Source: Eledone cirrhosa (Eukaryota). Taken from it: a DNA stretch of 64,000 bases. Shown here piece by piece: positions 15,636 to 58,310 of the stretch. A program made the translations under genes and the position numbers. The stretch lies in NCBI GenBank assembly GCA_964016885.1, contig OZ024741.1, positions 261,764,001 to 261,828,000 on the forward strand, read 5' to 3'. The first letter of the stretch is position 1, and each line of letters opens with the position of its first letter. The notes under the pieces are model-generated. The model was not told the origin of the DNA. It did no database searches and worked only from the letters and a program-made list of their open reading frames with translations.

Positions 15636-15899
15636 GTTATTAACAAATGGAACTATATTTATAAAACCATATCTATTTTATTATACATATTTCAAGGATA
15701 CCATGTTAAATTATGGTATGCTTTCATCAGACAAAATACAATATATACCAGTTTTATAAATAAATATTGACATAAAACTGGTATATATTGTATTTTGTCT
15801 GATGAAAGCATACCATAATTTAACATGGTATCCTTGAAATATGTATAACAAAATAGATATGGTTTTATAAATATAGTTTCCATTTGTTAATATCGTATA
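15631..15899. repeat. Near-perfect palindrome (MITE-like, ~127-bp arms)
   Basis: Arms ~15631-15757 and ~15772-15899, next to (TA)n. Confidence 0.85.
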
Positions 15900-22559: not shown

Positions 22560-25300
22560 AGAATGGTTAACACTCGTTCAAAATCTGTTACTGAATCCCT
22601 CAAACCGGAGACAATATTACAGGAAATCTCCGAAAAACTCTCCATAATAATAAGTAAGTACGATTTTCTTACCAATGCCGTACAACAAATGGCACAACAA
22701 ACAGACAACAGCTATAGGGAAAAACTTGATTCCCTAATTGCAGACCACCAGAAACAAGCACAAATCTTCCCCTCTGAAACACGACCAGAATTCCATTGTT
22801 CATAATGCGTTCAAAGAATGGAATGAACTGGATCTGGAAAAAGAAGCTTTAAAAAAAGAAACCAAATGAAACATATTTGGACCCAATTACTAAGTGAAAG
22901 AAAACAGGCATAATGGAAAGCCTTGAGGAGTGAAAACCTAGCGGACACATACGAGATATGGCAAAATAAGGAATAAGACATCCTCCCGAGAAAAATCTCC
23001 AGAAACTTGAGACTGTAATCCCCCTTCTCCGTCTAAGAGGGCCAGAATTCAAAGAAATATTTGAAAAATGTGACACCATCATTCAAGAAGAAATAAACAA
23101 AAGAAGCAGCGGCAATGTGCGTGAAAAGCTCTTTGACCTATGGAAGACTGATACAACCAAAGAGGAATTGAAATCAAAGAAAATCTCGAAGTCAAGAATA
23201 CAATGGCTATAAGAATATGAAAAGAACTATGGGAAAGACCAAATGAAATCCAGAAAACAAGCACATAAGAAACCCTCTAAGTCGGGAAAATTCAAAAACA
23301 CAAAAAATGAAGAATTCTCACGCAATAAACAAACGCAATAAACAAACACCATCGGAGAATCCCAAACACACAATTATACAAAGACCAAATACTAAACCCC
23401 AGAACCAGATACAACTACTGTCAAAACCCCAAGAACAATTACAAGAGGCAAAATCAAAGACATATGAAGACCGAATGGGACAACAGAAGAACCAGACCCC
23501 CATATATCAACCAGCAAACAAGATTCTACCATTCCGAACGAAATGCCAGTATCAACATGAAATGCCAGTGAACAGAATATTTCAGCACAACAGAAACACC
23601 ACTATCTCAAATGAGAATTATTTTTTTAAGACAAGGCGCCTCCCACCAAATGAAGGAAACAAGAAAATACACCACCCTTCAAGTGGCACTTGACGAGAAA
23701 AAACCCAAAGGAACCAAAAATAATCAACACATTGGCCAAGAAATTAACACAACACGAAATAAAACTTTTTAGAAAGCAGATCAAGCCGACCTTATAAAAG
23801 ACACAGAAGATTATTGTCGAAAATTACGTCTAGGAGAATTCTTCCTGGAGGAACCACTAGCGAAAAACAAAAAAAGAACTTCAAACCCCCGTTAAATAGA
23901 GACAAACACCTGGAAGAATATATAACCTGCCTTTGACAATCGGTGCAGTCAAATATTGAAGAGACGTAACACAAACGCAACATTCCTACAGACCCACTGC
24001 TAGCACTAAACAAGCTACAAAAAGACTTCTCAACAATCATAAAAGAAGCTGACAAAGGTGGAGCAATTGTCATCATGGACAAAAACCACTACAAGGATAT
24101 GGTCCTAGAACAGTTGAAAGACGAGGGTTTTTACAGGAAAGTCAGCAAAAGTGAAGAAAGAAAATCGATAATTCAAGTAGGTAAACTCACGACAAAGTAC
24201 CAAAATAAGCTCTAAATGAAATCAATTACTTAACCAACTTCGAAATGAAAACCAGCAATTTTTATGGATTGCCGAAAGTTCACAAATCCAGAGAAATCCA
24301 AAACAACAGAAAATGCAAAAATACATCATACGTCAAAGTACCATGATCGACAGATTTAAAATTACGCCCAATTGTTCCTGGTCCAGCCTCAAACACACAA
24401 CGTCTAAGCAACCTATTTGACATCATACTGAAACCCTTATATAAAAAAGTGCCAAGCTTCATCAGAGATGATATGGAATTCCTGAACTATATCCCCCAGA
24501 AAGTACACCAAGAAACAATCTTAGTCAGCTTTGACATAACAAGCTTATATACTAACATCCCACACGGCTTAGGAATTGAAGAATATCTGGTGACCTCATC
24601 AATACGGCCATCTCCAAGGCCCAGAACATCCCAGTGACAACACTGAGAAAAACAAACCAACAAAATAGAAGGGAAAAAACAGTTATCCCTTTTGTCGTCA
24701 CTCACAACACAAGGAACTTCAACATTGTGAAAGCCGCTAAACAATATCTCCCGATTCTCCAGCAGTCCTCCAAAATTAATGCACTCATAAAAGACTTACA
24801 AATAATATATAGTAGACGCCAAACATCCAACCTAAACAAATTGAGTATCAAGGTGAAATTTGCATCTGACAATGAAACAATGCAAGTTAAGAAATATGGG
24901 GACTCTTGATGTGGAACTTGTGAATACATTGAAGAAGGTGGGAAAATCTTTAAAAACAATGAGATTTTCAAAGTTAATGTGAGCATGAATTACAAAACAA
25001 AAAACTTAATGTATTGTGCAGCCTGCCCACAATGTAAAGAATACTACATTGGCGAAACAGGAACGGGTTTACATGACAGAGTTCGTGTCCATAAACAACA
25101 AATTAGAGACCCCTCTGTCAGAAACACCACATGCAGTGAACACTTCGCATCATGCGGAAAGGGAAACTTCTCTAAGATATGGTCAGACAACGATCATTTC
25201 AAGAAATATAAAGAAGAATTATTCATTAGAAGGTACAAACTGCTACTGAACACACAAAATGATATTCCATCTTCCAACAATGGGATTGTCTTTTTTTTTA
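22560..25300 (+). mobile_element. Degenerate Penelope-like retroelement (RT + GIY-YIG)
   Basis: EADKGGAIVIMDK, FYGLPKVHK, VSFDITSLYTNIP, YYIGETG...RVRVHK; many stops and an internal deletion. Confidence 0.85.
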
Positions 25301-25528
25301 AATCGCATACTGAAAAGAGAAAAGATATCTAAATAGATGTGGCTAACAACCACACTTTCAAACGTTCGATCGTTGAAGAGAACAGCCCTCGGAGGTACAC
25401 TACTTGTATATGTATATGGGAACTTAAATACTTGAGTAGATACTCATACATATGTGTGTGTAGATGTATATGTATGCCTGTAGGTGTACAAGTATGCATA
25501 TGCATGTATGTATGTATGTATGCATGTA

Positions 25529-37357: not shown

Positions 37358-37418
<61 letters not shown>

Positions 37419-37421
<3 letters not shown>

Positions 37422-37866
37422 TACGTATACGTACATACATATATGTATACAGACGTACAGTAGTATGTATATATATATACATACATGCACACATATATAT
37501 ATGTTCGTATGGATTCACCGAACATTTATTATAATGCTCGGTGTGTTTGTAAACAAACATCCCGAATTAAGCCGTACAGTGTCTAGCAAGCATCGTTGTT
37601 CATTTGTTCAGCACTGACAAAGGATAGCTAATAAGCTTGAAACTAGTACAGCGTTCCTTTGTCAGTGTTGAACAAATGAGCAACGATGGTTGCTAGACAC
37701 TGAACGGCTTAATTCGGGTTGTTTGTTTACAAACACACCGAGCATTATAATAAATGTTCGGTGAATCCATACGTACATATATATATATGTGTGCATGCAT
37801 GTATATATATATATATACATACTACTGTACGTCTGTATACATATATGTATGTACGTATACATACTT
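37419..37866. repeat. Fold-back element, copy 1
   Basis: ~205-bp arms around a 30-nt loop; duplicated together with its flanks at 41977-42423. Confidence 0.88.
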
Positions 37867-37975
37867 ATATTTAAGTAACAGCCGTACTAAGCGTGGGAAA
37901 TGAAATTTCGTTTCATTTTTTCCGTTTATATATATATATATTTATATATATATATATATATATTATATATATTTC

Positions 37976-38980: not shown

Positions 38981-40068
38981 TTCTTGTCTCTGTCTGTCTC
39001 TGCGCATGCGTTTGCGTGTGTGTATAATGTTTGGTGTGTGTGTTCACGTTTAAGTGTATGTGTTTTTATTTTTGTATTCTATCTGTGTACACTAGTGTGT
39101 GTTTATATGTGTTTGTTGTTATTGTTCTTATGTATATATTTATTTATGTATTTATTTAATTAAATTATCAGATTGTACAAAGGAGCCACAGAGAAATATA
39201 AGACCCTCGCAGAAATGGACATGAAAGGAATTTACCCATTATACAGGAGAAAATCATGGAATAGCTTAGATAAGACTAAAAATAAGATAGGGATTGCCAC
39301 TTCATGGTACGACAACCAGAGAAGCCAAAGTATCATGTTGGTGGATGCTACCCCTGGAGTGACATTAGCTGAGCAATGTAGAAAGGCCCTAAGAAAGACC
39401 CATCTAAAAATTAAAGTGGTAGAAAAGCCAGGAACTACCATAAAATCCCTGATCAGCAGGACATACCCCTTTAAGAAAACCCACTGTACGAATGAGAAAT
39501 GTGTTTTATGTAGAATGAACCCCTAGATAAATTGTGAAGCTAGAAATGTAGTCTATAGCATAAGACGTACAGAGGGTACTTGCAGAAACATGACAACGAC
39601 ATACATAGGTGAGACAGCTCGAAGCATATGAGAAAGAATAGACCAACACTGGGAGGAACTAAAAGGACAAAAAAGCGGTTCTGTACTATATGAACACGCC
39701 AGACAAAGACATGACGGTAATATAGACAACATAGAAATTAAATCAATATCTAAACATAGAAATGACTCAACGGGTAGGCAAATCAGAGAAGCAACTGAAA
39801 TAGAACTAAGAAGACCGAAGTTGAACAGAAAGAACGAATGGAACAATAACAACAACCATATCCAAACAAACAATACTGACTTAATGTAAATATAAATAAA
39901 TATATAAATAAATATATACACAAGTACAATAACAACAAAGACATATAAACACACACTAGTGAACAAAGAGAGAATACAAAACAAAAACACATACACTCAA
40001 ACTCTAATACACACATCAAATAGTATACACACACGTCAACGCATGCACAGGGACAGAGACAAGAAGAA
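38981..40068 (+). mobile_element. Penelope-like element with inverted terminal segment
   Basis: GIY-YIG region (NVVYSI...TYIGETARS); 38981-39160 is an inverted copy of ~39890-40068. Confidence 0.8.
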
Positions 40069-40094: not shown

Positions 40095-40536
40095 AAATGG
40101 CGTAAACTTTACAATACAACGGAAGGAAACATAATAGTACCACTGACGATACTCTACACAGAGCCGGATACAATAATAAATTTAACTACATCGATAAGAA
40201 TATTATACACCTACCTCCTAAATGTTACTATAATATTAATAATAAACAAATTAACCAAAATAATAAATCAAATAAAAAAGCTAGAACTTGGTATTCTCCT
40301 CCAATTTCTTTAGGAATTAAGACACCTTTAGCACACCAAATTTTTAAGGCTTTAGATAAATGTTTTCCTAAATCCCATAAATATCACTCTATTTTTAACA
40401 GACATACAATAAAACTTTCTTATTCTACTACTATGAATATAGCACAAAATATGAATAGAATTAGTAATAGGAACTTAAAATTAAACTCAATGCAAATAAA
40501 CCTAAATAGCAATAACAATATTACTAATAACATTAC

Positions 40537-40617
<81 letters not shown>

Positions 40618-41510
40618 CGTATCTCTAAACAACAATCTAAGAAAATGTAATTGCAGAAATAAAATATCTTGCCCTTTACAGAATAATTGCCTAGATACAA
40701 ATGCACCATAAAAACTAGAAATATATTATATAATTATATAGGAGCTACTTCTACAAAATTTAAGGACCGTTGATAATAATCATAAACATACTTTCAAACG
40801 AACGGACAAAAAATTCTCAACTTCACTCTCACATTTAATTTGGTCTTTAAAAGACAATAATACTGACTATTCGATCTCTTGGTGAAGGATATCGAAAGCG
40901 CCTGTTTACCAGACTATGGCTCTCTCAAGAATATTTCATCTTTGTATTGAAGAAATCTTTTATAATTATCAATTCGAGTAATACTATAAACAAACTATAA
41001 ACAAACAATAAACAAACAAAAAAAGAAATATTTAATTCTTGTTTGCATCGATTTTCTAGAACATTAAAAAATATTCATAATTTATAGAAAATACTGCACA
41101 TGGCCTTTATAAGTTGCCTAGTTGCTTTAAAAGGTGTTTTTAAAGGTTTTATAAAAGTTTTTATAAGTTTTTAAATTTATACATACAAATACTTAATATA
41201 TCAAATTTATTGTTATCAAAATCTATACATAGAAAGTTTTATCTTTTTATTAATATCTATATGGTGCTCTGAAATCATATATAATTTTTTATTTATATTG
41301 TAATTATAATATAAATTGTAATTAATTATTAGGTTAAACATTAGATCAAACTATATATTAGATCAAACTATTTCTGTGCCTTTCCTTTCTTCTATCCTAC
41401 GCCATTTTGAAAATGGCGTAGGATAGAAGAAAGGAAAGGCACAGAAACGAAGAAAGAAATCCCCAGTCACTGAAGAGGTCACAGAGTGTGTGACGAAAGA
41501 ACTATGACTA
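40095..41510 (+). mobile_element. Penelope-like element (GIY-YIG, poly-Asn insert) with 3' hammerhead
   Basis: KCNCRNKISCPLQNNCL, YYIGATSTKFKDR; related to the 63.1-64 kb copy. Confidence 0.75.
41465..41509 (+). ncRNA. Type I hammerhead ribozyme downstream of a Penelope-like element
   Basis: AGTCA-CTGAAGA-G-GTCACA(gagtg)TGTGAC-GAAA-GAAC-TA-TGACT. 5-bp stem I, 6-bp stem II, one extra nucleotide after A9. Confidence 0.78.
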
Positions 41511-41722
41511 TATATATATAAACAACTATCTGGTTGTGGAACCAACCAACCAACCAGAAATTTATAAATTTGTAAATTTATAAATATATATTAAATTAAA
41601 TTGAAGTGAAAGCAACTGGTGCGTGTGTTTCTTATTGGCAACATGACCCTCCCAAAGTATAACAATATCGGTTTCAACACACGATTTCAGATAAAGAATC
41701 TTGCTAAACAAATTCAGAAACG

Positions 41723-41902
<180 letters not shown>

Positions 41903-41917
41903 ACTTGTATATGTATG

Positions 41918-41976
<59 letters not shown>

Positions 41977-41979
<3 letters not shown>

Positions 41980-42423
41980 TACGTATACGTACATACATAT
42001 ATGTATACAGACGTACAGTAGTATGTATATATATATACATACATGCACACATATATATATGTACGTATGGATTCACCGAATATTTATTATAATGCTCGGT
42101 GTGTTTGTAAACAAACATCCCGAATTAAGCCGTACAGTGTCTAGCAAGCATCGTTGTTCATTTGTTCAGCACTGACAAAGGATAGCTAATAAGCTTGAAA
42201 CTAGTACAGCGTTCCTTTGTCAGTGTTGAACAAATGAGCAACGATGGTTGCTAGACACTGTACGGCTTAATTCGGGTTGTTTTATTTACAAACACACCGA
42301 GCATTATAATAAATGTTCGGTGAATCCATACGTACATATATATGTGTGCATGCATGTATATATATATATATATACATACTACTGTACGTCTGTATACATA
42401 TATGTATGTACGTATACATACTT
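41977..42423. repeat. Fold-back element, copy 2
   Basis: Near-identical to 37419-37866, including the downstream tail. Confidence 0.88.
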
Positions 42424-42693
42424 ATATTTAAGTAACAGCCGTACTAAGAGTGGGAAATGAAATTTCGTTTCATTTTTTCCGTTTATATATATATATAAAG
42501 CATCAGTCATACAAAAGTGAGTTACAAACGAAACGAAATTTAATTTCGTTTCGTTATTTGTTTTTGTCGTCTCCGTTGAACCGGTACGTACTCACGCTCT
42601 ATGCAAATTAGTCTGCCCACTACTAATTTTCATAGAAAAAGCATATAACGATATGTGCTTTTACGATTCTCTAGAAAGGCCGGAAGATAGGTA

Positions 42694-42738
42694 AATATTG
42701 CTGATGAGTTGTAACAACAACGAAACTAGTTCAATATT
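42694..42738 (+). ncRNA. Type I hammerhead ribozyme (copy 1 of tandem unit)
   Basis: AATATTG-CTGATGA-GTTGT(aaca)ACAAC-GAAA-CTAG-TT-CAATATT. 7-bp stem I, intact core, 5-bp stem II with G-C closing pair, palindromic stem III ACTAGT. Predicted GUU cleavage after 42731. Confidence 0.88.
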
Positions 42739-43159
42739 CCTTGTCTGGCTTTCTGGAGAATAGAGGAAAGGTGTTTCCTCAAAAACCAGTATGACTCTAA
42801 AAACCGGTTTGTCTGTGTGTTTGCATACAGAATAGCTGGACACTCACAGTAAAGTGACCAGTGAAAAACTCAGTACATCTACATATGTATACGTGTGTGT
42901 ATTCATATGCATACTAGTATTTCAGTATACATATGTGGATGTACATTTTTAACTTAATTGTTTAAGCGTCAGTCATACAAAAGTGAGTTACAAACGAAAC
43001 GAAATTTAATTTCGTTTCGTTATTTGTTTTTATCGTCTCCGTTGAACCGGTACGTACTCACGCTCTATGCAAATTAGTCTGCCCACTACTAATTTTCATA
43101 GAAAAAGCATATAACGATATGTGCTTTTACGATTCTCTAGAAAGGCCGGAAGATAGGTA

Positions 43160-43204
43160 AATATTGCTGATGAGTTGTAACAACAACGAAACTAGTTCAA
43201 TATT
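43160..43204 (+). ncRNA. Type I hammerhead ribozyme (copy 2 of tandem unit)
   Basis: Identical to 42694-42738, exactly 466 bp downstream. Confidence 0.88.
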
Positions 43205-43459
43205 CCTTGTCTGGCTTTCTGGAGAATAGAGGAAAGGTGTTTCCTCAAAAACCAGTATGACTCTAAAAACCGGTTTGTCTGTGTGTTTGCATACAGAATA
43301 GCTGGACACTCACAGTAAAGTGACCAGTGAAAAACTCAGTACATCTACATATGTATACGTGTGTGTATTCATATGCATACTAGTATTTCAGTATACATAT
43401 GTGGATGTACATTTTTAACTTAATTGTTTAAGCGTCAGTCATACAAAAGTGAGTTACTC

Positions 43460-43930
43460 TCTGTCTTGCCTGTTCCCCCTACATGCCGCCCTCAATGACA
43501 TATTGAGAAGAAGTCCTATCTTTCCATTTCAACTGCAGTCAGCAGGCTTAGACCGCAGAGATGGTAAATGCCTCAGCAGTATCACCCTCTTCCCATTCGA
43601 AGGAGGTAGATCCTTCATGTGGGGCGCCCGATGCTGTTACACGCTCTCCTCCTCCAACTTAGTTGCTTTGGCCACAAAACATGGTATTGCTACCCGCCTT
43701 GCCGAAGAACGTAAAATAAACAAATACTGGGGTTTGTCCGGCTCTTCCTCTTCCCACCGAACGCTGTCAAGATCTCAGGCGAACGTGGATCCCGCACTGC
43801 CGAGCTCCTCCGCATGATCGGAACGTTGGTGGCCCGTCTGAGGCTGGCTACCCCATGAGGTTGGTTGGCTGTTGCAGCGAGTGTCACTCGCCATGCTTTT
43901 GCTGTATTATCCATTGGGCACAACATTTCT
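43460..43930 (+). mobile_element. CRE-clade-like non-LTR restriction-like endonuclease fragment
   Basis: HAALNDILRRS...GLDRRDGK...ITLFPFEGGRSFMW. Confidence 0.6.
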
Positions 43931-44118
43931 ATCCCCTTGACCTAGGCCCAAAGACCATTCGCCCAACCCCTTCACCCCTCTCCTCTCTTCTGCAACAGCA
44001 GAACTCTTTCCCTCCCCTTCTGTCCTTTTTCTTATTTCTATTTTACTTTTTTCTCTATATTTCCCTATTCTTACTTTCCCTTTATTTATTTCTTTTATTA
44101 TTTTATTAGGTTTGTGGT

Positions 44119-44331: not shown

Positions 44332-45538
44332 TTCTTTGAGTCTCAGTCATTGATATTAGTTAACTGGAAAGTTTGTTGAAATGAATATCAAGCCACTACC
44401 TGCAGCCTCAGATATTCAGGACGTATCGGAGGGTTCTTTCTGTTCCCAGCAAGCATGCCTTTTGAAGCGTTCCAAAAAGCGTGAAGGGGCCAATTTTCTT
44501 TAACCTCCCTGGAAACTCTTTGAGATAGTACCTAGTGCGCCTATGACAATCGGGACCACTTTAAGTCCTGGTATCGGTTAATTTTCTCCCTCTCCTTCTC
44601 TTGCACTCTCGTGTCGAATGGGCAGGCCACATCCACAAACAGGCACGATCGTTTTTCTTTGTCCAAAACCACCAGGTCAGGTCTATTGTGTTCCAGTTTC
44701 TTGACCGTCTGTATCCTAAAATCCCACAGCAACTTCACCTGATAGTTTTCTATCACCGACTCTGGCTTATGCTCATACCACTTCTCAGAATGTGGTAAAT
44801 TGTTTACTTTGCATAGGTGCCAGTGGACCACCCTTCCCATCACATCATGTCTCCAGCCCTTATAGTGAGTCTGGGCTAGGTGTTTACACTCGGATACAAT
44901 GTGAGCCACAGTCTCCTCTCTCTCTCTACAGATCCTGCACAGTGAGCTAGCCACCTCCTTGTAAATATGGTGTTTCAACCACTTCGTTTTGAGGGCCTGC
45001 TCTTGCGCAGCCATTAACATTCCTTCTGTAGGCTTTTTAAGGTCTTCTCTTTTCAACCAGTTTTCATGTCTGTGAATCTCTGAATTCAGTTTTCTCAAAG
45101 AAGGTACTATGAAGGGATTTTTCATGAAGGCTGCTCTTTCTCCTTGTTGTTATTTTCTTCTTGGACATCCCTTGGTCTATTGCCCTCTCCTTCAGTACAG
45201 TTCTGAGCATTGGATCCTTACTATCAGTCACGTATTTGTGTAGGTTGTTTTTCTCCATCTGAACACAGTCCTCTATGCTGATAAGACCTCTTCCACCCTC
45301 AGATCTCCTTAAGTAGAGTCTATCGACATCACTCCTCTTGTGGAACATGTTGTAGATAGTCAATAGCTTCCTAGTCTTCCTATCCATTTCTTTTTGTTCA
45401 GCAAAATTCCATCTCAGAATTCCCGCACTGTACCTAATAATAGACACAGCTCGAGAATTTACTGCACTTATGGCATTCCTACTGTTCAGATGTGACTTTA
45501 ATACGCTCCTTACTCTCCGAATGTATTCAGATCTTATC
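44332..45538 (-). mobile_element. R4/Dong-clade non-LTR retrotransposon, 5'-truncated
   Basis: CCHC finger CRIC...HIVSEC, RHD, and RPDLVV...D RLE motif; (TAA)n flanks. Confidence 0.85.
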
Positions 45539-45539
45539 A

Positions 45540-45582
<43 letters not shown>

Positions 45583-45583
<1 letters not shown>

Positions 45584-48500
45584 AGTTGCATTTATCTTGC
45601 TTTATGTTCATACGAGTTATCACCAAGTCACAACCAGTGACCTCAAGAGACAACAAGGTCCGCCATGTTCAAGAAAGAACATACATACTCACACATGCAT
45701 CTTTAGTGTTTAGACTTGTGATGTACTTATATTGACAGAATCTTCCTTAGTATATGAGCAGTTCCCATTAGTACTATCTTTTGTATTTCTCCTATACGCG
45801 GGTTTCCTGGGATTTGCGATAAGTGATCATTAGACCCCTTATGTATCATTCCCAGAGCGCCTACAACCACTGGTATTGTTTTAGTTCTCAATTTCCACAT
45901 TTTTCCAATTTCTATCTCCAGGTCCTTATACTTGCTCAATTTTTCAAATGTTTTTATAGATACATTCTTGTCTATTGGAACAGACATATCAATTAGCAGG
46001 CATACCCTCTTTTTAAAGTCCTTCAATATTATATCAGGTCTATTTGCATCTATTTTTCGGTCTGTTTGGATGCTAAAGTTCCACAAGATTGAGATGGGAG
46101 GTGGTTGATGCTCCCACCAATTCTTTTGATGGGGCAGGTCAAAATGCTTACACATTATCCAATGTATGTATTGTGCAGCTCTGTCATGCCTGTTTAGGTA
46201 TTCGGTTGGAGCTATAGGACTGCACATTGAAATTATATGGTCAATGGTCTCTGGTTGTTTTTTGCATACACGGCATAATGGGCTGCATCCATTTTTTATT
46301 ATGTTGGCTTGGTAATTTTTTGTTGGCAGACACTGATCTTGTGCTGATATAATCAGTCCTTCAGTCTCCGATTTCAGTCCAGAGAATGCCAACCACTGAT
46401 GGGTTAAAGTTTTGTCAACATCAGGATTGTTAGCTCGCTCTGGGTATTTTCCATACAGAGGCTTTTCTTGCCATTTCTTAGCCAGTTTCTGTAGCAGTTC
46501 TTTCTTTGCAGTTACTTTTACCTGCTTTGCTTTTTCTGTGTTTTCCATTTCAACAGTAAATGGGACTTCTGAAATTTGTAGTCCATTACTGTATCTTTGT
46601 GCATCTTTTGTAATGGAATATGATCTTTTGATGCTTTCGTGTTTCAAAACGAGTTTGATCATCCAATCATGTGATTCCCTTAGATATGTAGATAATCCAA
46701 TTATTGCAGTTTTCAATGTATCGAGCCTACGGATCTCTGTGCTTGACCAGTTGATGACATTGTAACTGTAGGTTACTACTGGTATGGCAAGCGTGTTTAT
46801 GGCATCGATCCTATTCCTTGCATTCAATTCCGTTCTTAAGATTGCCCTTACTCTGCGGTAACATTCCTTCCTTATCCTTTCCCTCATTGTCGAGTGCTTG
46901 ATTCCGTCTCCTTCACAAACACCTAGATATTTGTAAGTTTTTTCTTGATTAAGTTCTCTTATCACGTTCCCCCGATCAAGATTAATGTCTGAACTCTTCA
47001 GCAGCCTGCCTCTGGTGAACGTTGCTTTGGCGAATTTATCTAGTCCAAACTCCATTTTAATGCCATCACTGAACTGCTCCACAGTGGATAATAGCCCTTG
47101 CAATTGTTCATCATTTTTTGCAAATAGTTTCAGGTCATCCATGTAGAACAAGTGATTAATGGTTTTGTCATAGACTTTATATCCATGTTTTGTTTCATTG
47201 AGCATTTTACTTAATGGTATAAGTGCGATGCAGAATAAAAGCGGTGATAAAGAGTCACCCTGAAAAATTCCACAATTAATATTAACTTCTCCAGCTTCCA
47301 GTGATTTTGTTTCACTATTCAAAAGGAGTGTCATTTTCCATGTCTTCATACTGAATGACAAAAACCTCCTGACAACGGGGGATATTTTGAAAATCTCTAA
47401 ACATTTTTCAATCCAACTGTGTGGCAAACTATCGAATACTTTTTTATAATCTATCCAAGCAATCGATAGATTTTTGTGTCTATTATGACAATCTTCCAGT
47501 ATCATTTTGTTAACCTGAAGCTGATCCTTACAGCCATATGAGCCTCGTTTACACCCTTTCTGCTCAATGGGAAATAGGTCATTTGTTATCAGGTGGTCAT
47601 ATGTGTATTCAGTTAGGACTGATGTTAAAATTTTATACATTGTGGTCAAGCAAGTTATCGGTCTGTAACTTTTGGGATTGTTTGTCTCATCATTCTTCGG
47701 AAGCAGGAATGTAATACCGTTAACTAGCCATGATGGTATTTTTTCTGGCTCCTTAACTATTTCATTGTAAAGTTGGGCTAACAGCTCATGAGACTCTGTG
47801 AAGGCATTTATCCAAAAGTTTTGTATTTTGTCTTTTCCTGGGGATTTCCATTTGCTGGTTTTTCTTAGAGCCAAGCGCAACTGTTCAACTGTTATATTTT
47901 CCCATATTTGTTCCTCAAGGTGAGCTGTATCTTTCATTTGTCTGTCTATCCATGGGGCATGTATGTTATGAACTTTTTCTTCGGCCCAGATCTTTTACCA
48001 GAATTCTTGCACTTCCTCCTTGGGTGGTATTGATTTAGCAGTTATTGTTGACTTACTAATTTTTCTGTAGAAGTTTCTTTGGTTGTTTTTGAACATATTA
48101 TTGTCCTTATAGAATCTAGATCGTTTTTCAAAGCGCCTTATACGAGCAGCTTTGGCCGACACTTTTTGCTTGATTATTTCTATCAGCATGTCTATGTCAC
48201 TTGTTGATTTTATACTGTACTTTTTTTTCAATTTTCTAAGTTTAGTATGTTTAACATGTTCACCTACTTTATAGTTTGTTAAAATTTCTATACCAGATCG
48301 GTGAAGGTTTATTTGGCGATTGATGTTCTCTTGCCAAGTAGATTTCTTGTGGAAATTCCTTTGTTTTTTCATCTTCACTCCACATAAGTGAGTGGTGACT
48401 TTAGCCGATGCATAATAGAGATGATTTAAATCAGTAATGTTTAGTTTGTTTGTGATGATAATGTTTTTGAGAATTATGTTAGTCTTGTGTATTATCTTCT

Positions 48501-48850
48501 GGTTCTGTTTGGAGTTCTGGATCTTAGGGAGGGTGTCTCGTTGCCCATGTCAGATTCTTTCATTTTCCTCCATTCGATCATAATTTCATCCTTCAAGTTG
48601 GCAAGTTCATTCTCATTCATTTCTTTATCATTTACGATCGCATTATTTTCATTTGGAGTTTCATCTTGAGCATGCACTCCCTCCACTTTTTCGATCCTTT
48701 CTTTAATTTGTTCTGTTGCCAGTGATTCCGCCCCAACCCTGGGATTCAAAGTGTTACAATTTACCTCGTTTTCGCTGACACTTGTTTCATTTTCCCTTCG
48801 CTGACTTTGTGCTAATAGCTTGATCTGATCAATTTCTATATCAGTTAGTA
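45583..48850 (-). mobile_element. R4/Dong-clade non-LTR retrotransposon (second family; RT + RLE, 736-aa ORF)
   Basis: YRPITCL, GIFQGDSLSPLLF, YMDD, CCHC and RPD..D..K motifs; its 3' end abuts (TAA)n. Confidence 0.9.
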
Positions 48851-50015
48851 TGAGATTTTATCATTAGACATTTACTTTATTTTGACGCGTTTTATCCTTA
48901 TCCGCCAAGGGGTAATCATTTCGTGTTACCACTTCTAGAACGAGTGTCAACCAAGACTAGAGGGGTCGTTCTCCCCTAGAGACACGGCTATTCCCCGCCG
49001 GCCGCCATCCCGGTATTTCTTGGTCACGGGGTTTTCTTTTTGTTGTTTTTTTAAATTGTTATTATCATGAGTGGTTCCTTAATGTGAGCATTGCGTGGCT
49101 TAAGAATGAAATTATTAATAATTGTCTCCACTCCAGGCACAAGGCCAGCAATCACCCAGTGCATTACAATAATATAATATACTTTTTGCTGAAGTTGCCT
49201 GTTATTGTTGTTGGCTATGTCGGTGGTGGTGATGGGGCTTTTTATATTGTTGGTGAGGAAGGGGTGAGCCAGCAGTGCCATAGTTGTTGATGTTGACGTT
49301 TGGCCGGTGGCCAGGTCACTAAGTCAATCTATTTATATCTTTTGCGAGCCTCTCCCTTGTCTAGTGATACCGCCACCTTCCCCTTTCTCTCTCAAGTTAA
49401 CAGGGGAATAGTGGTGGTAGCAATGAAGGAGTGGTGGCGGCGGTGATGGGATAGTGGTAGCAATGATGGATGGAATGGTGGCGGCGGTGGCGTTGTCGTT
49501 ACTGAGTTTTGTGATATGTAGTATCTATGAGTTTGTCGCGTATGTTTAATATATATTGTGTTGACATATTCCCGTAAAATTGGAATTAAACATTTTGTTA
49601 AAACTTGAGACAATAATAATAGTAATTATTATTGTGATGCTGGGATTGGTGGTGGTGGTGGTGAAATTGCCGTTATCTGGCTGTTATATTTAGTGTGATG
49701 GTGTAGGTGGTGTATCAAGTTTCTGGTGTTGGTGAAATTGCTGTTATTTGGCTGTTCTATATAGTGTAGACAGAGGGTGTTTTCTTCCATTTATAAACAT
49801 TTCCTTTTTTGAATACAAAATATATAATACAAAATTGAATATTTGAGCGATATAACAATATAATATGGATCCGAAATTTTATGGGACTTGATTCGGTGGT
49901 TTATGCAACATTTGTACTAAGAATTGTTATTTCACAATTGATTTAAATATGTTAAAAATCAAAAACTTACGGGAGCGATTTCATGACATTCTACCACCTC
50001 GTGCGTCTTCTTCCC

Positions 50016-50074
<59 letters not shown>

Positions 50075-50075
50075 T

Positions 50076-52633
50076 CGGACGCAGATATGTGAAGACGTAC
50101 AAGTCTGCGGGGGAAAAGGTTCGTAACTTTAAGCTGTTTTAAAGTATCATTTTTTGTATTTTCTTGTCGTTAACGAAACATAAGGTACCCACCTTGGTTT
50201 CAAGGAAGGGAGACCTCTTAATATTTGAGCTTTAAGCCCGAATATTCAGATTTATTTTTAAAAACTTCGAAAAAAAATCGCTTCCCCATCAAAAAAAATA
50301 TGGAAATTTTCGACCTTGAAACGGTAAAAAACGTTCAGGTCAAAAGTTCAAAAGTAGCCACTGTAGATCTCACCACAACTACAACTACTACAGACATATC
50401 TGTCGACCATTCAACTGAATGTGTAGGCAAAACACAAAAGCTACCTTCTGTGTTACGACCAGTATCATCTCAAAACGACATGACCACCACCACCACCACA
50501 ACAACAACAACAACAACTCAGAACAGCAACGACAATAGCCCCGACAGCTTCAATGTAAGCACGGATGGCGGTGGCAACAGCCACAACAAACAAAACAACA
50601 ACAACAACAACAACAACAGCAAGAACGACAACACCAACAACAAGAGCAACAGATGCACCACCTTTGCTGCAGCAGCAGCAAAAATAAAGCGCTTATTGAA
50701 TATTGATATTAGCGATAAAGACGAACAGTTGGCCCAGGCGTGGAGGTTAATTAAACGGGAGAAGTCCTGGGCAAACCTGACCATCCCGGACGGGGCAATA
50801 GAGGCCATGCAAAGGAGGACGGTGTACTTTCGATGAATTTCAGTGAGACACGCAGTGGAACTCTCCAGCCAAGCAGAGGTCGAGGCTGCTTTGGAGTGCA
50901 TCGGAAGTGACATAAAGCAAAAGTATAAAGCAAGGGCCAAACAGTTCGGTACCATCTCGGTACTGTTCAAAACCGAGGCCCTTGCTATCAAACACTCGGT
51001 GACCCCCTGCAGAACGGAACGTATTATCATGCACCCGTCCTACATGGGAAAAAGGACAGTAAAAGTGCGCATCCCCAGGAATGAACATATGGTGGCTCCT
51101 GGGATACGTAATCGAGGAGGGGACAGACACTACCCTCCTGGATATCAAAAGGACAGAGAGAGAAGACTGGTCCGGAATGGATTTGGAGATTCTTCTCCAA
51201 ATGAAACCAGAGGACATGAACAACATCCCTGCAGGACGGGACAACAATCCAACTAATCACTGACGTAAGAAGGCCGCACTGCTTCGTCTGCGGGGAAACA
51301 ACGCATCTGCAAGCCTTCGGCCCTCAGCGCACCTATTCAGATCACAAATTTGTGATCTATATGGTCGAACTAGATAAAACTCGTAGGTTGGGAGTGGGTT
51401 ACTGGAAGCTGAACATGTCATTTTCGGCACGTAAGGCTTACAAGGACCGAGTCAACAATTTAGTTAAGCAAAGGTTGACAGGGGGGATCATCAACAACAG
51501 ATGGTGGGAGGCTCTCAAAAGAGAGATTAGAGTAACTTCGATAGAGTTCAGCATAGAACTAGCGTTAGAGAAAAATAGAAAGGAGGGGGAGCAGGTAGAT
51601 AGGTTAGACGAGGCTATTTGTAGTGGAATTGCAACTGACGTGCTAGCGGCGAGAATAGCATTAGACCATTTCTTCAATGCGAAACACGAAGGTTGCATTG
51701 TCTGAGCTAAGGCGCATGCGCTGAGAAACGAGGGAACCAAAGCTGTTCGATGGGCCCGCGTGACGGAGGCGCAGCGTGGTAATAAAACAACAATTCGGTC
51801 TTTGGCGGACTGAGACGGACACGAGATAAACGATTCCATGCGGATGTGTGAGGCCTTTCGCCAGCACTTTGCTCGGTTGTTCGGGGAGAGTCGCGACTTA
51901 GAGAGACTAGCGGACTTCAGTCCCTATATTGACGGCTTGCCGCGCATCTCGACGGTCGACGCTGAGCGCTGCGAAGGCGTTGAGCGCTGCGAAAGGCCGA
52001 TTACTTCAGCCGAAATTCAGGACGTCCTTGTCGGCTGCATGAGGCGCAAGTGACACGGTTTGGATGGCCTTCCCTACGAGCTTTACGTAAATATGCTAGA
52101 CTTGTACTCCGATCTCCTCGAAGCACTCTACTGCAACTGGCAGCAGAATGGGAGTATTCCCAGTTCTGTGAGCAGAGGAGTGGTGACACTGATAAGGAAA
52201 GACGAGAACAAGAGGGATACACTAGACAACTTCAGGCCCATAACTCTGCTCAACACAGAGTTTAAGATTTTGGCCCAGGTGTTAGATTTTCTAAAAGGTG
52301 GATGAATGTGGCGAGAATGGCTCGTGTGACTGGGCCTACTCTGACCATGCGCCTATAGGCTAGCTAACTTTAGGAGAGGGTTGCTGTCCCTGGGTGCCCT
52401 AGAAGCGCAGGGTGGTTCAGGATTGGTGGGGTACCCAAGTCACCACAGGGTCGTCCACCCCCTATCGGGGAATTTATTTTGTTATATTTATGCACAGTTT
52501 ATTTTATATTTTTATATCTTCATTGTTAAATTAATCTTGCCATTGTGCACTTTTACTCGACCTATTGTAAACCCCCACTGACCCTGTTTTGTATTGTCCC
52601 CTACATGTCGGCCCTTGTGGCTAATAAATGAAA

Positions 52634-52635
<2 letters not shown>
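50076..52635 (+). mobile_element. Tx1-clade LINE, internally deleted
   Basis: ORF1 with zinc knuckle (CFVCGETTH), GYWKLN, DGLPYELY and NFRPITLLNTEFKILA; AATAAA then (ATT)n; (ATT)n also at the 5' end. Confidence 0.8.
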
Positions 52636-52692
<57 letters not shown>

Positions 52693-52693
52693 G

Positions 52694-54110
52694 TTCTTTG
52701 AGTCTCAGTCATTGATGTTATTTACTGGAATGTTTGTTGAAATGAATATCAAGCCACTACCTGCAGCCTCAGATATTCAGGACGTATCGGAGGGTTCTTG
52801 CTGTTCCCAGCAAGCATGCCTTTTGAAATGTTCCAAAAATCGGGGCGGCTCCAATTTTCTTTAACCATCCTTGGAAACTCTTTGAGATAGTACCTAGTGC
52901 GCCTATGACAATCGGGACCACTTTGACTTCATGGCAGTTCCAAATCCTTTTTACCCCCCACTGGTATCGGTTAATTTTCTCCTTCTCCTTCTCTTGCACT
53001 CTTGTGTCGAATGGGCAGGCTACATCCACAATCAGGCACGACCTTTTTTCCTTGTCCAAAACCACCAGATCAGGTCTATTGTGTTTCAGTTTCTTGTCCG
53101 TCTGTATCCTGAAATCCCACAGCATCTTCACCTGATCGTTTTCTATCACTAACTCTGGCTTATGCTCATACCACTTCTCAGAATGTGGTAAATTGTTTAC
53201 TTTGCATAGGTGTCAGTGGATCACCATGCCCATCACATCATGTCTCCAGCCTTTATAGTGAGTCTGGGCTAGGTGTTTACACTCGGATACAATGTGAGCC
53301 ACAGTCTCCTCTCTCTACACACACAATGAGCTAGCCTCCTCATTGTCAATATGGTGTTTCACCCACTTCGTTTTGAGGACCTACTCTTGCGCAACCATTA
53401 GCATTCCTTCTGTAGCCTTTTTAAGGTATCCTCTTTTCAACCAGAACCATGTCTGTGGATCTCTAAATTCAGTTTTCTCAAAGAACGTACTATGAAGGGA
53501 TTTTTCATGAATGTTGCTCTTCCTCCTTGTTGTTATTTCCTCTCTGGACATCCCCTGGTCTAATGTCCTCTCCTTCAGTACAATTCTGAGCATTGGCTCC
53601 CTACTATCAGTCACGTATTTGAGTAGGTTGTTTTTCTCCATCTGAACAAGGTCCTCTATGCTGATAAGACCTCTTCCACCTTCAGATCTCCTTAAGTAGA
53701 ATCTATCGACATCACTCCTCTTGTGGAACATGTCGTAGATAGTCAATAGCTTCCTAGTCTTCCTATCCATTTCTTTTTGTTCAGCAACATTCCATCTCAG
53801 AATTCCCGCACTGTACCTAATAATAGACACAGCTCGGGGATTTACTACACTTATGGCATTCATACTGTTCAGATGTGATTTTAATACGCTCCTCATTTAT
53901 TAATACCAAATTCCATACATATATCATTGTTGAAAATACGGACAGTGTCAACAAGTACATCCAACTCCTTCCCACTCTTCCCGAAGAGCTTAAGATCGTC
54001 CATGAAGAGGAGGTGATTGATGGTAAGCTCTCCTTTTCCCAACTTGTATCCTGCTCTCACTGTTCCTAGTATAATGGTCAGGGGTATCAGGGCAAGGACA
54101 AACAACAGAG
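52694..54110 (-). mobile_element. R4/Dong-clade copy, decayed
   Basis: Same family as the 44332 and 54157 copies, with deletions and stops. Confidence 0.85.
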
Positions 54111-54118
54111 CGTACAAA

Positions 54119-54152
<34 letters not shown>

Positions 54153-54156
54153 GTTA

Positions 54157-55838
54157 TTCCTTGAATCTCAGTCATTGATGTTGGTTAACTGGAAAGTCCG
54201 TTGGATTGAATATCAAGCCACTACCTGCAGCCTCAGATATTCAGGACGTATCGGAGGGTTCTTGCCGTTCCAAGCAAGCATGCCTTTTGAAGCGTTCCAA
54301 AAAGCGTGAAGGGGCCGATTTTCTTTAACCATCCCTGGAAACCTTTGGAGATAGTCCCCAGTGCGCCTATGACAATCGGGATCACTTTGACTTCATGGCA
54401 GTTCCAAATCCTTTTCACCTCCCACTTTAGGTCCTGGTATCGGTTAATTTTCTCCCTCTCCTTCTCTTGCACTCTCGTGTCGAACGGGCAGGCCACATCC
54501 ACAATCAGGCACGATCTTTTTTCTTTGTCCACAACCACCAGGTCAGGTCTATTGTGTTCCAGTTTTTTGTCCGTCTGTATCCTAAAATCCCACAGCACCT
54601 TCACCTGACTGTTCTCCATCACCGCCTCTGGCCTATGCTCATACCATTTCTCAGAATGTGGTAGATTGTTTACTTTGCACAGGTGCCTTTGGATCACCCT
54701 GCCCATCACATCGTGTCTCCAGCCCTTATAGTGGGTCTGGGCTAGGTGTTTACACTCGGACACAATGTGAGCCACAGTCTCCTCTCTCTCTCCACAGATC
54801 CTGCACAGTGGGCTAGCCTCCTCCTTGTAGATATGGTGCTTCAACCACTTCGTTTTGAGGGCCTGCTCCTGCGCAGCCATTAGCATTCCTTCTGTAGCCT
54901 TTTTGAGGTCTCCTCTTCTCAACCAGTTCCATGTCTGTGGATCTCTAAATTCAGTTTTCTCAAAGAAGGTACTATGAAGGGATTTTCCCTTAAGGCTGCT
55001 CTTCCTCCTTGATGTTATTTCCTCCTTGGATATCCCCTGGCCTACTGTCCCCTCCTTCAGTACAGCTCTGAGCATTGGCTCCTTACTATAGGTCACGTAT
55101 TTGTATAGGTTGTTTTTCTCCATCTGAACACAGTCCTCTATGCTGATAAGACCTCTTCCACCCTCAGATCTCCTTAGGTAGAGTCTATCGACATCACTCC
55201 TCTTGTGGAACATGTTGTAGATAGTCAATAGCTTCCTAGTCTTCCTATCCATTTCTTTTTGTTCAGCAACATTCCATCTCAGAATTCCCGCACTGTACCT
55301 AATAATAGACACAGCTCGGGAATTTACTGCGCTTATGGCATTTCTGCTGTTCAGATGTGACTTCAATACGCTCCTTACTCTCCGAATGTATTCAGTTCTT
55401 AACAATTCCTTCATTTTTTTGTTCTTTATGCCATCAGCCCCCAGAACGCCCAAATACTTGTATCCTTCCTCAGAGTCAATTTCCTTTATCATCTCACCTG
55501 TTGGTATCTGGATCCCGTTACTTCTGCTCAACCTACCCCTCCTCATCACAATGACTCCACATTTACCAATACCAAACTGCATACATATATCACTGCTGAA
55601 AATACGGACAGTGTCAACAAGCACATCCAACTCCTTCTCACTTTTCCCGAAGAGCTTAAGATCGTCCATGAAGAGGAGGTGATTGATGGTAAGCTCTCCC
55701 CTTCCCAACTTGTATCCTGCTCTCACTTTTCGCAGCATAATGGTCAAGGGCATCAGGGCAAGGACAAACAACAGAGGGGACAGGCTATCTCCCTGGAAGA
55801 TACCTCTCTTGATCTTCACGCTTCCCAAGGATACTCCA
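54157..55838 (-). mobile_element. R4/Dong-clade copy, 5'-truncated, open 531-aa RT/RLE frame
   Basis: ORF 54233-55828 uninterrupted; (TAA)n on both sides. Confidence 0.9.
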
Positions 55839-55877
<39 letters not shown>

Positions 55878-55895
55878 ATAATTATTATTATTATT

Positions 55896-58310
55896 GGCGA
55901 CCTACGTAGGAAATCGTATCATCGTGAGCTCCGCAAAAGTTTGTTGTTTTCGTTTGTTTAAAATTGGCATTTATGGAAAATTGTTGTTGTTAACTGTTTA
56001 TAAAGTCACAAAATTTGCTTTCGGAAAAGGACACTCAAAAAGATTGGGGCCTTGAGCCAAAAATTTAAACTTTTATAATTATCAAACAAAAGATTTCTTT
56101 GAAAAAATCATAGACGACTCAGAGCTACACCAAGCAGTTGAGAGCCTTCCTTACAAACTAACACCTCACACCAACACCACCATTGTAAATATTACTAGGT
56201 TTGCCAACACTAAAAATATATAAGCAGTTGCAATAATTTTAATTTGTCTCATGCAGACATTCATTTCCCGCCATTACCAATGACTGCAGGTGTTGAAGCC
56301 GCCACCACCCCCACCAACACCACAGCGACAACAGAAACAAAAGAAAAAAATTAAATTATCTCGTGACATCGAAATGGATTCACCCAGAATGGACTCTTCC
56401 ACACCGAACACCACTGACGCCACCACCACCACAACTGAAACTAAAAATAACAATAACAAAAATAACAATAACAACAACAGCAACAACAACAATAAGAATA
56501 ACAATATCGTGTCATTTTCCAAAGCAGCCAAAAAGTGCGAAGCAATCCAAGTAACTCAGGAGGAAATAGATAAAACCAAGAGATTGGTAAAGAAAGATGG
56601 GTACAGGGTCAGCCTCCCCCTCCCCAAATAAAATGGAGCATCGGCGCCTATGCACCGTGTCTTATCGGACAATTAACATAAAATCGCGCCGAGTGGAACG
56701 GGTATCCGAGTCCCGAATCCAAAAAGCTTTGGGACATGTGTGGGCAAAAAGCCCACATCAGACGTGGGCAGAAATATGGAACCTAGGCCAGAGAGCACTC
56801 CATGGCCCCATTAAGAAGCGACGACTACACACTCGTCCCAAGCTATTGTGGCCAGAGACTCGTAAAGATCAGGGTGACCCACGTTCCACCGGCCATCGAA
56901 ATTCCCTGGCTAATGGCTGCCGTCCTCCCCGGCATCGAAGCCAACACCAAAATAATAGAAATAGCAAAAGAAAAGCAGGAGAACTGGTCCGGATCTGGGA
57001 TGGAGCTCCTGATCCAAGCGGACCAAAAAAGCATTGAGGAGATCCCAGAGGTAATAGACCTCACTGACAGCAGCCACCTCACCGTAATCGTCGAGGGTAG
57101 AAGGCCTAGGTGTGTCGTTTGGGGTGAAGGAACCCACCTAAGGGCTTTCTGCCCACAGGCTAAAAAGTTGAGGCCACCTCTCTTATCCACCCCAGTGACT
57201 CAACCATCAACACCACCAGCAGCAGAAATGGCAGCAACAACTGTAGCAGCAACAAGCCCAGCAACAGTAGCAAAACCACCACCACCACCCAACGCACCAG
57301 AACTAGCACCAGCGCCTACACCATCCACCACGCCACAACCAAAACCAACGCCTATGAAGGATTTTCCACCTTCCGACCTATCGCAACTGGAGACAGATCG
57401 TGACGACGAGGAGTGGGAAACGGTATCAGGAAAAATGAAGAAAAAGAAAAAAAAAGACAAAAAAGAAAAAAATCCCCTTCCTTCCCCCTCCAAAAACAAA
57501 ATACAGAAGGAAACAAATAAACTATCAAACAAAAAAGTTAGGACAGCTATGCCACCATCCACACCAGCATCACCAACCCCATCACCACAAAAACCAACAC
57601 CATCACCATCATTAACCCCAACACAACCATTACCAACACCACAAATGTCATCAAAAAGCGAAACAGAAACAAACTCACATCAAACGCAAACAAAACAAAA
57701 CAACCAAAACGATACACACTACACAGCATTAAATTTGAACAACAACCAACTATTACACTACATCCAACACAACACCAGCATCACAGAAAAAGACTACACA
57801 ACACCCCAAAAGTTCACACCACCTCCACACATACAAATCACTCGCATCACACAGAAAACGTACATGACACTAAAACAAAAATTCCTCAAAGACATCGGAG
57901 ACTTCCGACAAGCACTCTCCAGGAGGATTTATAAGGACATCCTTACGGAGGAGGCCACAAGCAGTGAAAAGGATGGAGAAACCATCCTTCCTCTACGAGA
58001 AGTAAGGTAAGTGGTCTTTCCCATCTTTTCCACTCCATTTCAACATGACCTCACTCAGAATAGGCAGCATAAATGAGCGTGGCTTGGGGTCATCATGGAA
58101 GCAGGGACACCTGCTCAACGACCTGAGGTCACTAAACATAGATGTAGTGGCCATCAGCGAGACCAGAATCTCCGAAGCACGGGCCTTTGCAAGGATCTTC
58201 GGCGTCTACGATGTGTACGCATCTCCCAGCCGTCCTGGATGGGGGGGATTGCTGTGCTTTTTCGGAGAGGTTTGGATCTCGCCATACGGGCCATCTTCCT
58301 GAAAGCAGAA
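55896..58310 (+). mobile_element. Tx1-clade LINE, 5' part (ORF1 + APE start)
   Basis: ORF1 similar to the 50.2-51.3 kb element; ORF2 begins MTSLRIGSINERGL...DVVAISETR; starts right after (ATT)n. Confidence 0.8.

What the first reader, a model, noticed from the sequence alone, without database searches (positions are those of the whole stretch)
42498..43457. Candidate retrozyme: highly structured 466-nt tandem unit with one intact hammerhead per unit
Seen: two almost identical 466-bp non-coding units plus 28 bp, each with a textbook type-I hammerhead (42694-42738, 43160-43204). Stem I extends with bulges and G.U pairs to about 42667-42760. The rest of the unit is a series of hairpins (42527-42555; 42637-42662; 42873-42892 with 42925-42944). 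Known: metazoan non-LTR retrozymes are tandem non-coding monomers bounded by type-I hammerheads, whose transcripts self-cleave to unit length, circularise and are thought to be mobilised by Penelope-like RTs. Minimal hammerheads with a palindromic stem III can act as dimers, which a tandem transcript supplies. Inference: a + strand transcript (antisense to the PTP gene) would be cut at 42731 and 43197, releasing a 466-nt RNA able to form a circle. The 2.06-unit array, which does not begin at the cleavage site, fits reverse transcription around a circular template. I do not know whether this family has been described.
Basis: partly seen in the sequence, partly recalled or inferred. Interest (0 to 1): 0.88.

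Follow-up and report, generated by a model that had tools for sequence, protein, structure and literature searches.

The report
Ribozyme repeat spread by Penelope retrotransposons
This 466-base repeat with a hammerhead-ribozyme motif is one of about 9,500 copies in the genome, and the shape of its insertions (two back-to-back arms ending at two fixed points inside TA repeats, some made of 15-18 identical units) likely records a Penelope-type retrotransposon enzyme copying a small RNA circle round and round, a route proposed before but hard to see.

Summary
Confirmed: 2.06 tandem 466-nt units, each with an intact type I hammerhead motif (cut predicted after 42731 and 43197). It belongs to a young family: 9,503 hammerhead matches genome-wide, control 0. 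The family fits the known non-LTR retrozymes. The new part is the insertion anatomy. Of 105 arms, 100 end at one of two sites 70-74 nt apart, far from the cut site, and 94 of those 100 run into (TA)n. Of 42 inverted pairs, 39 use one site each. This is the 'tail' signature of Penelope-like elements (PLEs); an autonomous PLE here shows it too. 88 of 99 arms read through the cut site. Three arrays (15-18 units, both arms) are invariant. One copy has 19 A>G among 24 changes, repeated on a second pass: likely an edited sense-strand monomer circle was copied. Against: 11 of 15 long arrays are mosaic, the A>G excess rests mostly on one locus, no partner PLE was identified, and cleavage and circles are untested. 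The window copy itself is truncated and duplicated, so it is a poor witness.

The parts
42498..42963 (+). Retrozyme unit 1 (family A, 466 nt); its 5' end abuts (TA)n
42964..43429 (+). Retrozyme unit 2; unit positions in this report count from 42964
43430..43457 (+). First 28 nt of a third unit; non-canonical end, likely cut by a later deletion
42689..42742 (+). Type I hammerhead motif 1 (core 42701-42707, GAAA 42722-42725, predicted cut after 42731)
43155..43208 (+). Type I hammerhead motif 2 (predicted cut after 43197)
42960..43033 (+). 'Tail': the 70-74 nt between the family's two fixed 3' ends (site B at unit 462-1, about 42959-42964; site A at unit 70, 43033); inferred reverse-transcription start sites
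   Evidence: six contigs of run X1 leave the unit at 43033 into ATATAT
42527..42555 (+). 13-bp hairpin inside the tail (second copy 42993-43021); a shorter homologous hairpin sits in family B
42487..42497 (.). (TA)n target tract shared with the neighbouring family B insertion
41970..42486 (.). Neighbour: two-armed inverted insertion of a sister retrozyme family B (424-nt unit; minus arm 41970-42182, plus arm 42172-42486)
43458..44100 (+). Internal piece of an older repeat (74-79% to other copies) joined to the array's broken 3' end; not part of the element

Best explanation
This is a truncated copy of a young, roughly 9,500-unit family of non-coding hammerhead repeats (a non-LTR retrozyme) whose insertions carry Penelope-type ends and were likely made by a Penelope-like enzyme copying the plus-strand RNA, in many cases likely a one-unit circle. 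Steps: (1) a tandem transcript is likely cut by the hammerheads, probably as dimers, and ligated to a 466-nt circle (inferred; untested). (2) A PLE protein likely nicks both strands of a (TA)n tract and primes two cDNAs on the RNA, one at unit position 70 and one at 462-1 (the two fixed ends, one per arm, and the TA flanks are shown; the enzyme is inferred). (3) Each cDNA runs for an independent length, usually past the cut site and sometimes more than ten rounds (arm lengths shown; rolling on a circle inferred). (4) The two cDNA ends are joined head to head with short overlaps or filler (junctions shown). (5) Later, arrays mutate, convert, expand or contract as DNA; the window copy lost its 3' end and differs from its duplicate by one unit (shown for the pair; mechanism inferred).
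For: Copy number: 9,503 exact matches to the hammerhead pattern, reversed-pattern control 0. Ends: 59 of 63 arms in the best-scoring set (L059 left out, its ends are fetch boundaries) and 41 of 42 in a positional set end at unit 68-71 or 460-2; 94 of these 100 have (TA)3 within 12 nt. 39 of 42 inverted pairs are one A end plus one B end; none is A+A or B+B. PLEs start reverse transcription at two adjacent internal sites on both target strands, giving the 'tail' (PMC11167929), and form inverted 5'-truncated copies with microsatellite bias (PMC8557442). An RT + GIY-YIG element in this genome has the same two-end pattern, 60 nt apart, in (TA)n. 88 of 99 arms cross the cut site, 38 at least twice; 2 of 102 inner ends lie within 230-240 against 2.4 expected. 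L054 (16 full units), L058 (15) and L130 (18) have no variable column across both arms; L054 and L130 carry changes seen at no other sampled locus, in L130 the cluster A104G, A108G, A109G. L060 has 19 A>G among 24 differences; 9 of them recur in the opposite arm and 6 recur on the second pass of the same arm. Inner ends of paired arms are unrelated (3 of 39 within 20 nt, 3.4 expected) and either arm can be longer (B in 11 of 39). Hammerhead core unchanged in locus haplotypes; T212A/A223T compensatory in 27 of 62; 6 of 16 pairs change on both sides across families A and B.
Against: No RNA run was available and no cleavage was tested; in Xenopus only 1 of 9 retrozyme dimers cleaved in vitro, and the anole PLE used uncleaved RNA. 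11 of 15 loci with four or more full units have 6-76 variable columns, and in L041 one arm repeats units 4-6 of the other in order, which fits a multi-unit template or later conversion. The sense-strand A>G excess among locus-private fixed changes (19 vs 4 T>C, p 0.0014) falls to 9 vs 4 (p 0.17) without L060 and 6 vs 4 without L060 and L130. Outside the hammerhead, covariation in the predicted circle is weak: 3 compensatory, 20 one-sided, 19 breaking. No homology was found between the unit and the ends of two autonomous PLE families. Invariant arrays could owe something to assembly polishing or recent DNA-level expansion.
Confidence: 0.72

Rival explanations
1. Same family and same PLE enzyme, but the template is always an uncleaved linear multi-unit transcript; the hammerhead and circles play no part in copying.
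For: Hammerhead mutants did not affect anole PLE insertion in vitro (PMC11167929). Mosaic long arrays, and the ordered unit match between arms in L041. Read-through of the cut site is expected on uncleaved RNA as well.
Against: Independent editing of successive units of one linear RNA would not give the same six A>G changes twice in one arm of L060, nor one A>G triplet in all units of both arms of L130, unless an earlier step passed through a single unit. The catalytic core is kept and the stems covary.
Confidence: 0.18
2. A DNA-level element (satellite, or Helitron/MITE-like foldback) spread without an RNA step; the hammerhead is a relic.
For: A hairpin lies 12 nt before end A, insertions sit in TA tracts, and long arrays such as L112 show satellite-like turnover; the window copy and its duplicate differ by one unit.
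Against: Fixed 3' ends with scattered 5' ends, two different ends per inverted pair, A>G clusters on the element's sense strand in both oppositely oriented arms, and the same pattern in an RT-encoding element of this genome. That Helitrons do not leave such two-armed 5'-truncated copies is recalled, not tested.
Confidence: 0.05
3. The inverted arm arises by fold-back self-priming or from an antisense template, as proposed for rotifer PLEs, not by a second priming on the sense RNA.
For: Proposed in PMC3846280 (passages). 18 of 39 junctions have overlaps, and paired arm lengths are weakly correlated (rho 0.36, p 0.026).
Against: Inner ends of the two arms are not symmetric (3 of 39 within 20 nt, 3.4 expected), either arm can be the longer, and the clustered changes are A>G on the hammerhead strand rather than T>C.
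Confidence: 0.04
4. A single local duplication or an assembly artefact.
For: The window region is itself segmentally duplicated.
Against: Thousands of dispersed matches and the unit in contigs of four independent-looking public runs.
Confidence: 0.01

Closest known systems
Metazoan non-LTR retrozymes (coral, mussel, axolotl; PMC7229834, results and discussion read; bioRxiv 10.64898/2026.07.22.740005, parts 1-3 of 5 read)
   Same: Non-coding, low-GC (166 of 466) tandem unit with one type I hammerhead, short palindromic stem III, strong predicted self-pairing, thousands of dispersed monomers to multimers, PLEs in the same genome.
   Different: Unit slightly above the 150-450 bp of the 2020 paper (inside the 51-972 bp of the preprint). 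The text I read describes neither inverted two-armed insertions, fixed tail ends, (TA)n targeting nor edited copies; supplements were not readable. RNA evidence, shown there, is missing here.
Penelope-like elements with endonuclease (anole PAc, PMC11167929; structures in PMC8557442 and PMC3846280)
   Same: Two 3' ends defining a tail, inverted 5'-truncated arm, AT-rich or microsatellite targets, hammerhead near the ends, internal start sites unrelated to the cut site.
   Different: No ORF; tail 70-74 nt instead of 30-40; both arms can be many units long; no sequence homology to the ends of the two autonomous families tested.
Non-autonomous Chlamys PLEs such as MRC1 (PMC8557442 and PMC9977147, passages)
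   Same: Non-autonomous elements with multicopy head-to-tail insertions at microsatellites, moved by a PLE.
   Different: Those lack canonical hammerheads and resemble their autonomous partner at the 3' end; here a hammerhead is present and no such partner was found.

Membership tests
non-LTR retrozyme | Short tandem unit with one type I hammerhead motif per unit | tested here: met
non-LTR retrozyme | Non-coding, GC below 50% | tested here: met
   no stop-to-stop frame of 100 aa or more lies inside the two full units; GC 166 of 466
non-LTR retrozyme | Many dispersed genomic copies, monomers to multimers | tested here: met
non-LTR retrozyme | Highly self-paired monomer RNA | tested here: met
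   z -10.15; prediction only, and covariation outside the hammerhead is weak
non-LTR retrozyme | Self-cleavage of the transcript | not testable with these tools
   core intact and conserved, no assay
non-LTR retrozyme | Accumulates as circular RNA | not testable with these tools
   no RNA holder listed; only indirect genomic signs
non-LTR retrozyme | Target-site duplications, when present longer than 4 bp | tested here: inconclusive
   flanks are (TA)n on both sides, so a duplication cannot be delimited
non-LTR retrozyme | No LTR, primer-binding site or polypurine tract | not tested
   arrays are plain tandem units; no search for PBS or PPT was run
PLE-mobilised element | Two 3' ends defining a tail, inverted 5'-truncated arm, AT-rich target | tested here: met
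   100 of 105 arms; 39 of 42 pairs; 94 of 100 TA flanks. The window copy itself shows none of the canonical 3' ends.
PLE-mobilised element | Autonomous RT + GIY-YIG element present with the same insertion pattern | tested here: met
pLTR-derived retrozyme (2026 preprint) | Sequence homology to the pLTR of an autonomous PLE | tested here: inconclusive
   none in 58 records from two PLE families; other PLE families in this genome were only glanced at
autonomous PLE | ORF with RT and GIY-YIG | tested here: not met
Rfam Hammerhead_HH9 (RF02275) | Score at or above 52 bits | tested here: not met
   37.7 bits

The most novel reading that the evidence does not exclude
These loci are a fossil record of the retrozyme and Penelope reaction itself: a PLE enzyme primes both strands of a cut TA tract on one sense-strand, ADAR-edited 466-nt RNA circle at two fixed sites, each copy rolls round the circle independently for up to a dozen turns, and the two cDNAs are end-joined into a palindromic array. 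That would be direct genomic evidence that ribozyme-made RNA circles are retrotransposition templates, that PLEs are their motor, and that the PLE inverted repeat comes from twin priming on the sense strand.
Probability: 0.5. Interest if true: 0.78.

Novelty: new member of a known kind. Interest (0 to 1): 0.58.

Why it matters
The class is known, but how animal retrozymes move is still a hypothesis: the 2020 paper names PLEs as candidates, and the 2026 preprint says the mechanism remains to be worked out. For PLEs, the role of the hammerhead, a circular template and the template strand are also open (PMC4209133, PMC3846280, PMC11167929). This family, with its larger sister family, gives thousands of young insertions that bear on all three questions and names exact predicted start sites (unit 70 and 462-1) on a 466-nt RNA that can be tested with a purified PLE protein.

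Tried and rejected
Rfam at gathering threshold: no hit in the window; miRNA-family hits near the array are TA-rich hairpins far below threshold. Sequencing runs: no RNA holder listed. Run X5 holds the unit as one 496-nt contig with no cover on the left flank, which I first took as a hint of an RNA circle; X5 also holds family B at higher depth, and the tool skips that flank as a repeat, so the hint was dropped. X1 depth fits DNA. Partner search: neither the family found with L123 (38,116 candidates) nor the one found with window 24910-25260 (21,850 candidates) shows homology to unit A or B beyond embedded copies and TA/TG-rich stretches; only TATCGT at site A is shared with the first (one locus, L155), too short to count. 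Pile-up of 5' ends at the cut site: none. Family-wide A>G bias: not significant without L060. The 2.06-unit length as proof of rolling-circle copying: rejected. Earlier scan notes: none found. Pfam did not recognise the EGF-like exon candidates or several PLE fragments; PLE clade names (Nematis-, Neptune-, Hydra-like) are recalled from motifs and were not tested. Paper searches listed no description of this family or of two-armed or edited retrozyme insertions; most subscription papers, Repbase and Dfam were not searched, and the supplements of PMC7229834 and the preprint could not be read.

Full report
Observation. The array is real: 42498-43457, period 466, 2.1 copies, two differences between the units. 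Each unit holds a type I hammerhead motif: Rfam HH9 at 37.7 bits, E 1.2e-7, below the gathering score of 52; predicted cuts after 42731 and 43197. The cut-to-cut monomer folds far better than shuffles (z -10.15). The named hairpins fold as stated. PTP-domain exons (PF00102) lie on the minus strand at 108-296 and 2274-2468, with EGF-like exon candidates at about 36.3, 38.1 and 61.7 kb (no Pfam hit), so the array is likely intronic and antisense. Unit positions below count from window 42964; the cut is after 234.

The family. A DNA search scored 40 of 336 candidates and returned copies at 94-100% on many contigs. A hammerhead pattern has 9,503 exact matches, reversed control 0; that is about 4.4 Mb and, by rough extrapolation, about 2,400 loci. 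I studied two sets: 33 fetched best-scoring loci plus the window, and all 24 clusters formed by the first 100 pattern hits on contig C1. The second set is unbiased for similarity but needs an intact hammerhead.

Insertion anatomy. Most loci are two arms back to back with 3' ends pointing outward. Leaving out L059, whose ends are fetch boundaries, 59 of 63 arms in set 1 and 41 of 42 in set 2 end at unit 68-71 (site A) or 460-2 (site B). The five exceptions are L033, L047, L115, the window and its duplicate. 94 of the 100 canonical ends have (TA)3 within 12 nt. Of 42 inverted junctions, 39 pair an A end with a B end; none pairs like with like. Inner 5' ends scatter over the unit, 2 of 102 near the cut site against 2.4 expected; 88 of 99 arms cross the cut site, 38 at least twice. 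The two inner ends of a pair are unrelated (3 of 39 within 20 nt, 3.4 expected), B is the longer arm in 11 of 39, and junctions show overlap (18), blunt joins (3) or filler (18). Contigs of public run X1 also leave the unit at site A into TA repeats.

Why this points to a PLE. The purified anole PLE cuts AT-rich DNA, extends both strands and starts at two adjacent internal RNA sites, which define the genomic 'tail' (PMC11167929, main text read). Inverted 5'-truncated copies, a tail at one end only and microsatellite bias are general PLE traits (PMC8557442 and PMC3846280, passages). This genome has a very abundant element with RT and GIY-YIG domains (38,116 candidates, frames up to 1,005 aa), a hammerhead-like motif in its 3' region and two ends 60 nt apart in (TA)n: 18 long ends and 9 short ends among 30 motif hits. 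A second family has 796-aa frames. Neither shows homology to the unit, so the partner is not identified and pLTR origin is not shown.

Why a sense-strand monomer, likely a circle. Arms of one locus share a haplotype: in 20 of 22 two-armed loci the nearest unit is in the other arm or tied. L054, L058 and L130 have 16, 15 and 18 full units with no variable column across both arms; L054 and L130 carry changes seen at no other sampled locus, and in L130 these are three A>G within 6 nt. L060 differs from the majority at 24 sites, 19 of them A>G; four of the other five are subfamily markers. Nine of the A>G sites recur in the oppositely oriented arm, and the six in positions 1-70 recur on the arm's second pass. 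I read this as ADAR-type editing of the plus-strand RNA (the ADAR signature is recalled knowledge), copied more than once round. Because the change follows the element's strand in both orientations, a sequencing bias is unlikely.

Results against. Of 15 loci with four or more full units, 3 are invariant, L036 has 3 variable columns and 11 have 6-76; L112 looks like satellite turnover, and in L041 one arm repeats units 4-6 of the other. So uncleaved multimers or later conversion also shape the arrays. The A>G excess among locus-private fixed changes is 19 vs 4 T>C (p 0.0014), but 9 vs 4 without L060; single-unit changes are symmetric, 18 vs 16. The source of an edited copy could itself be an unsampled locus, which only moves the monomer step one generation back. 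Covariation outside the hammerhead is weak. No RNA data were available, and published retrozyme dimers often fail to cleave (1 of 9).

Selection on the ribozyme. No core position carries a change shared by two locus haplotypes, while 86 of 466 positions do; T212A with A223T keeps stem II in 27 of 62 haplotypes. The window's left neighbour (41970-42486) is a two-armed insertion of a sister family B: 424-nt unit, 25,855 pattern matches, control 0, 66-70% like A over the tail and hammerhead. Across 9 distinct A and B hammerheads, 6 of 16 pairs change on both sides and 0 of 500 shuffles reach the covariation score; relatedness inflates this control.

The window copy. It starts at position 1 against the TA tract, has no inverted arm and stops at 28, inside the tail, against the middle of an old repeat whose other copies continue upstream. 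A segmental duplicate 4.2 Mb away has both junctions but 1.06 units. It is best read as a one-armed insertion later cut by a deletion, with a unit gained or lost as DNA (inference).

Known and new. Non-LTR retrozymes, their circles and the PLE hypothesis are published (PMC7229834, parts 2-4 of 6 read; PMC4209133, passages; bioRxiv 10.64898/2026.07.22.740005, parts 1-3 of 5). Non-autonomous PLEs with head-to-tail copies are known in Chlamydomonas. Seven searches listed no account of this family or of tail-ended, two-armed or edited retrozyme insertions; supplements and repeat databases were not seen. The host looks to me like a cephalopod, from recall only. Verdict: a new member of a known kind whose insertion record is unusually informative; interest 0.58.

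Noticed in passing
window 41970-42486 and 37412-37929: Two two-armed insertions of sister retrozyme family B (424-nt unit, hammerhead with a U.U pair at the base of stem II, tail about 58 nt); 25,855 pattern matches genome-wide, more than family A.
   Followed up: partly
window about 41493-41725: 3' end with the long (60-nt) tail of the abundant autonomous PLE, in the TA tract just left of family B: three PLE-type insertions stacked at neighbouring microsatellites.
   Followed up: partly
window 31553-52656 vs G000:C2:257558600-257588300: Segmental duplicate at 97-99% identity 4.2 Mb away, with different LINE insertions; may include a second copy of the PTP gene (one search shows a further identical match).
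   Followed up: partly
window minus strand 108-61979: Receptor-type PTP gene candidate: PTP-domain exons at the left, repeated EGF-like exon candidates at 36.3, 38.1 and 61.7 kb.
   Followed up: partly
window 15730-15799; L111:4410-4543; L038, L048, L068, L117: Further hammerhead-like motifs with long stem II and an AT-rich palindromic stem III, some in inverted pairs upstream of PLE-like ORFs.
   Followed up: no
window 18851-19633, 24580-25332, 39164-39829, 40106-40711, 63327-63758: Fragments of at least three PLE-like families, two with weak GIY-YIG hits.
   Followed up: partly
L106:3447-8268: A 1,040-aa LINE-like frame sits between the two arms of a family A insertion, splitting the palindrome.
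   Followed up: no
L117, L120, L123, L126-L128: A 469-nt subfamily, about 89% identical to the window unit, with the same two ends; its units within a locus are still nearly identical, so several subfamilies were active in parallel.
   Followed up: partly
window 44541-55918: Several copies of a LINE with an RVT_1 domain on the minus strand, one frame of 755 aa.
   Followed up: no
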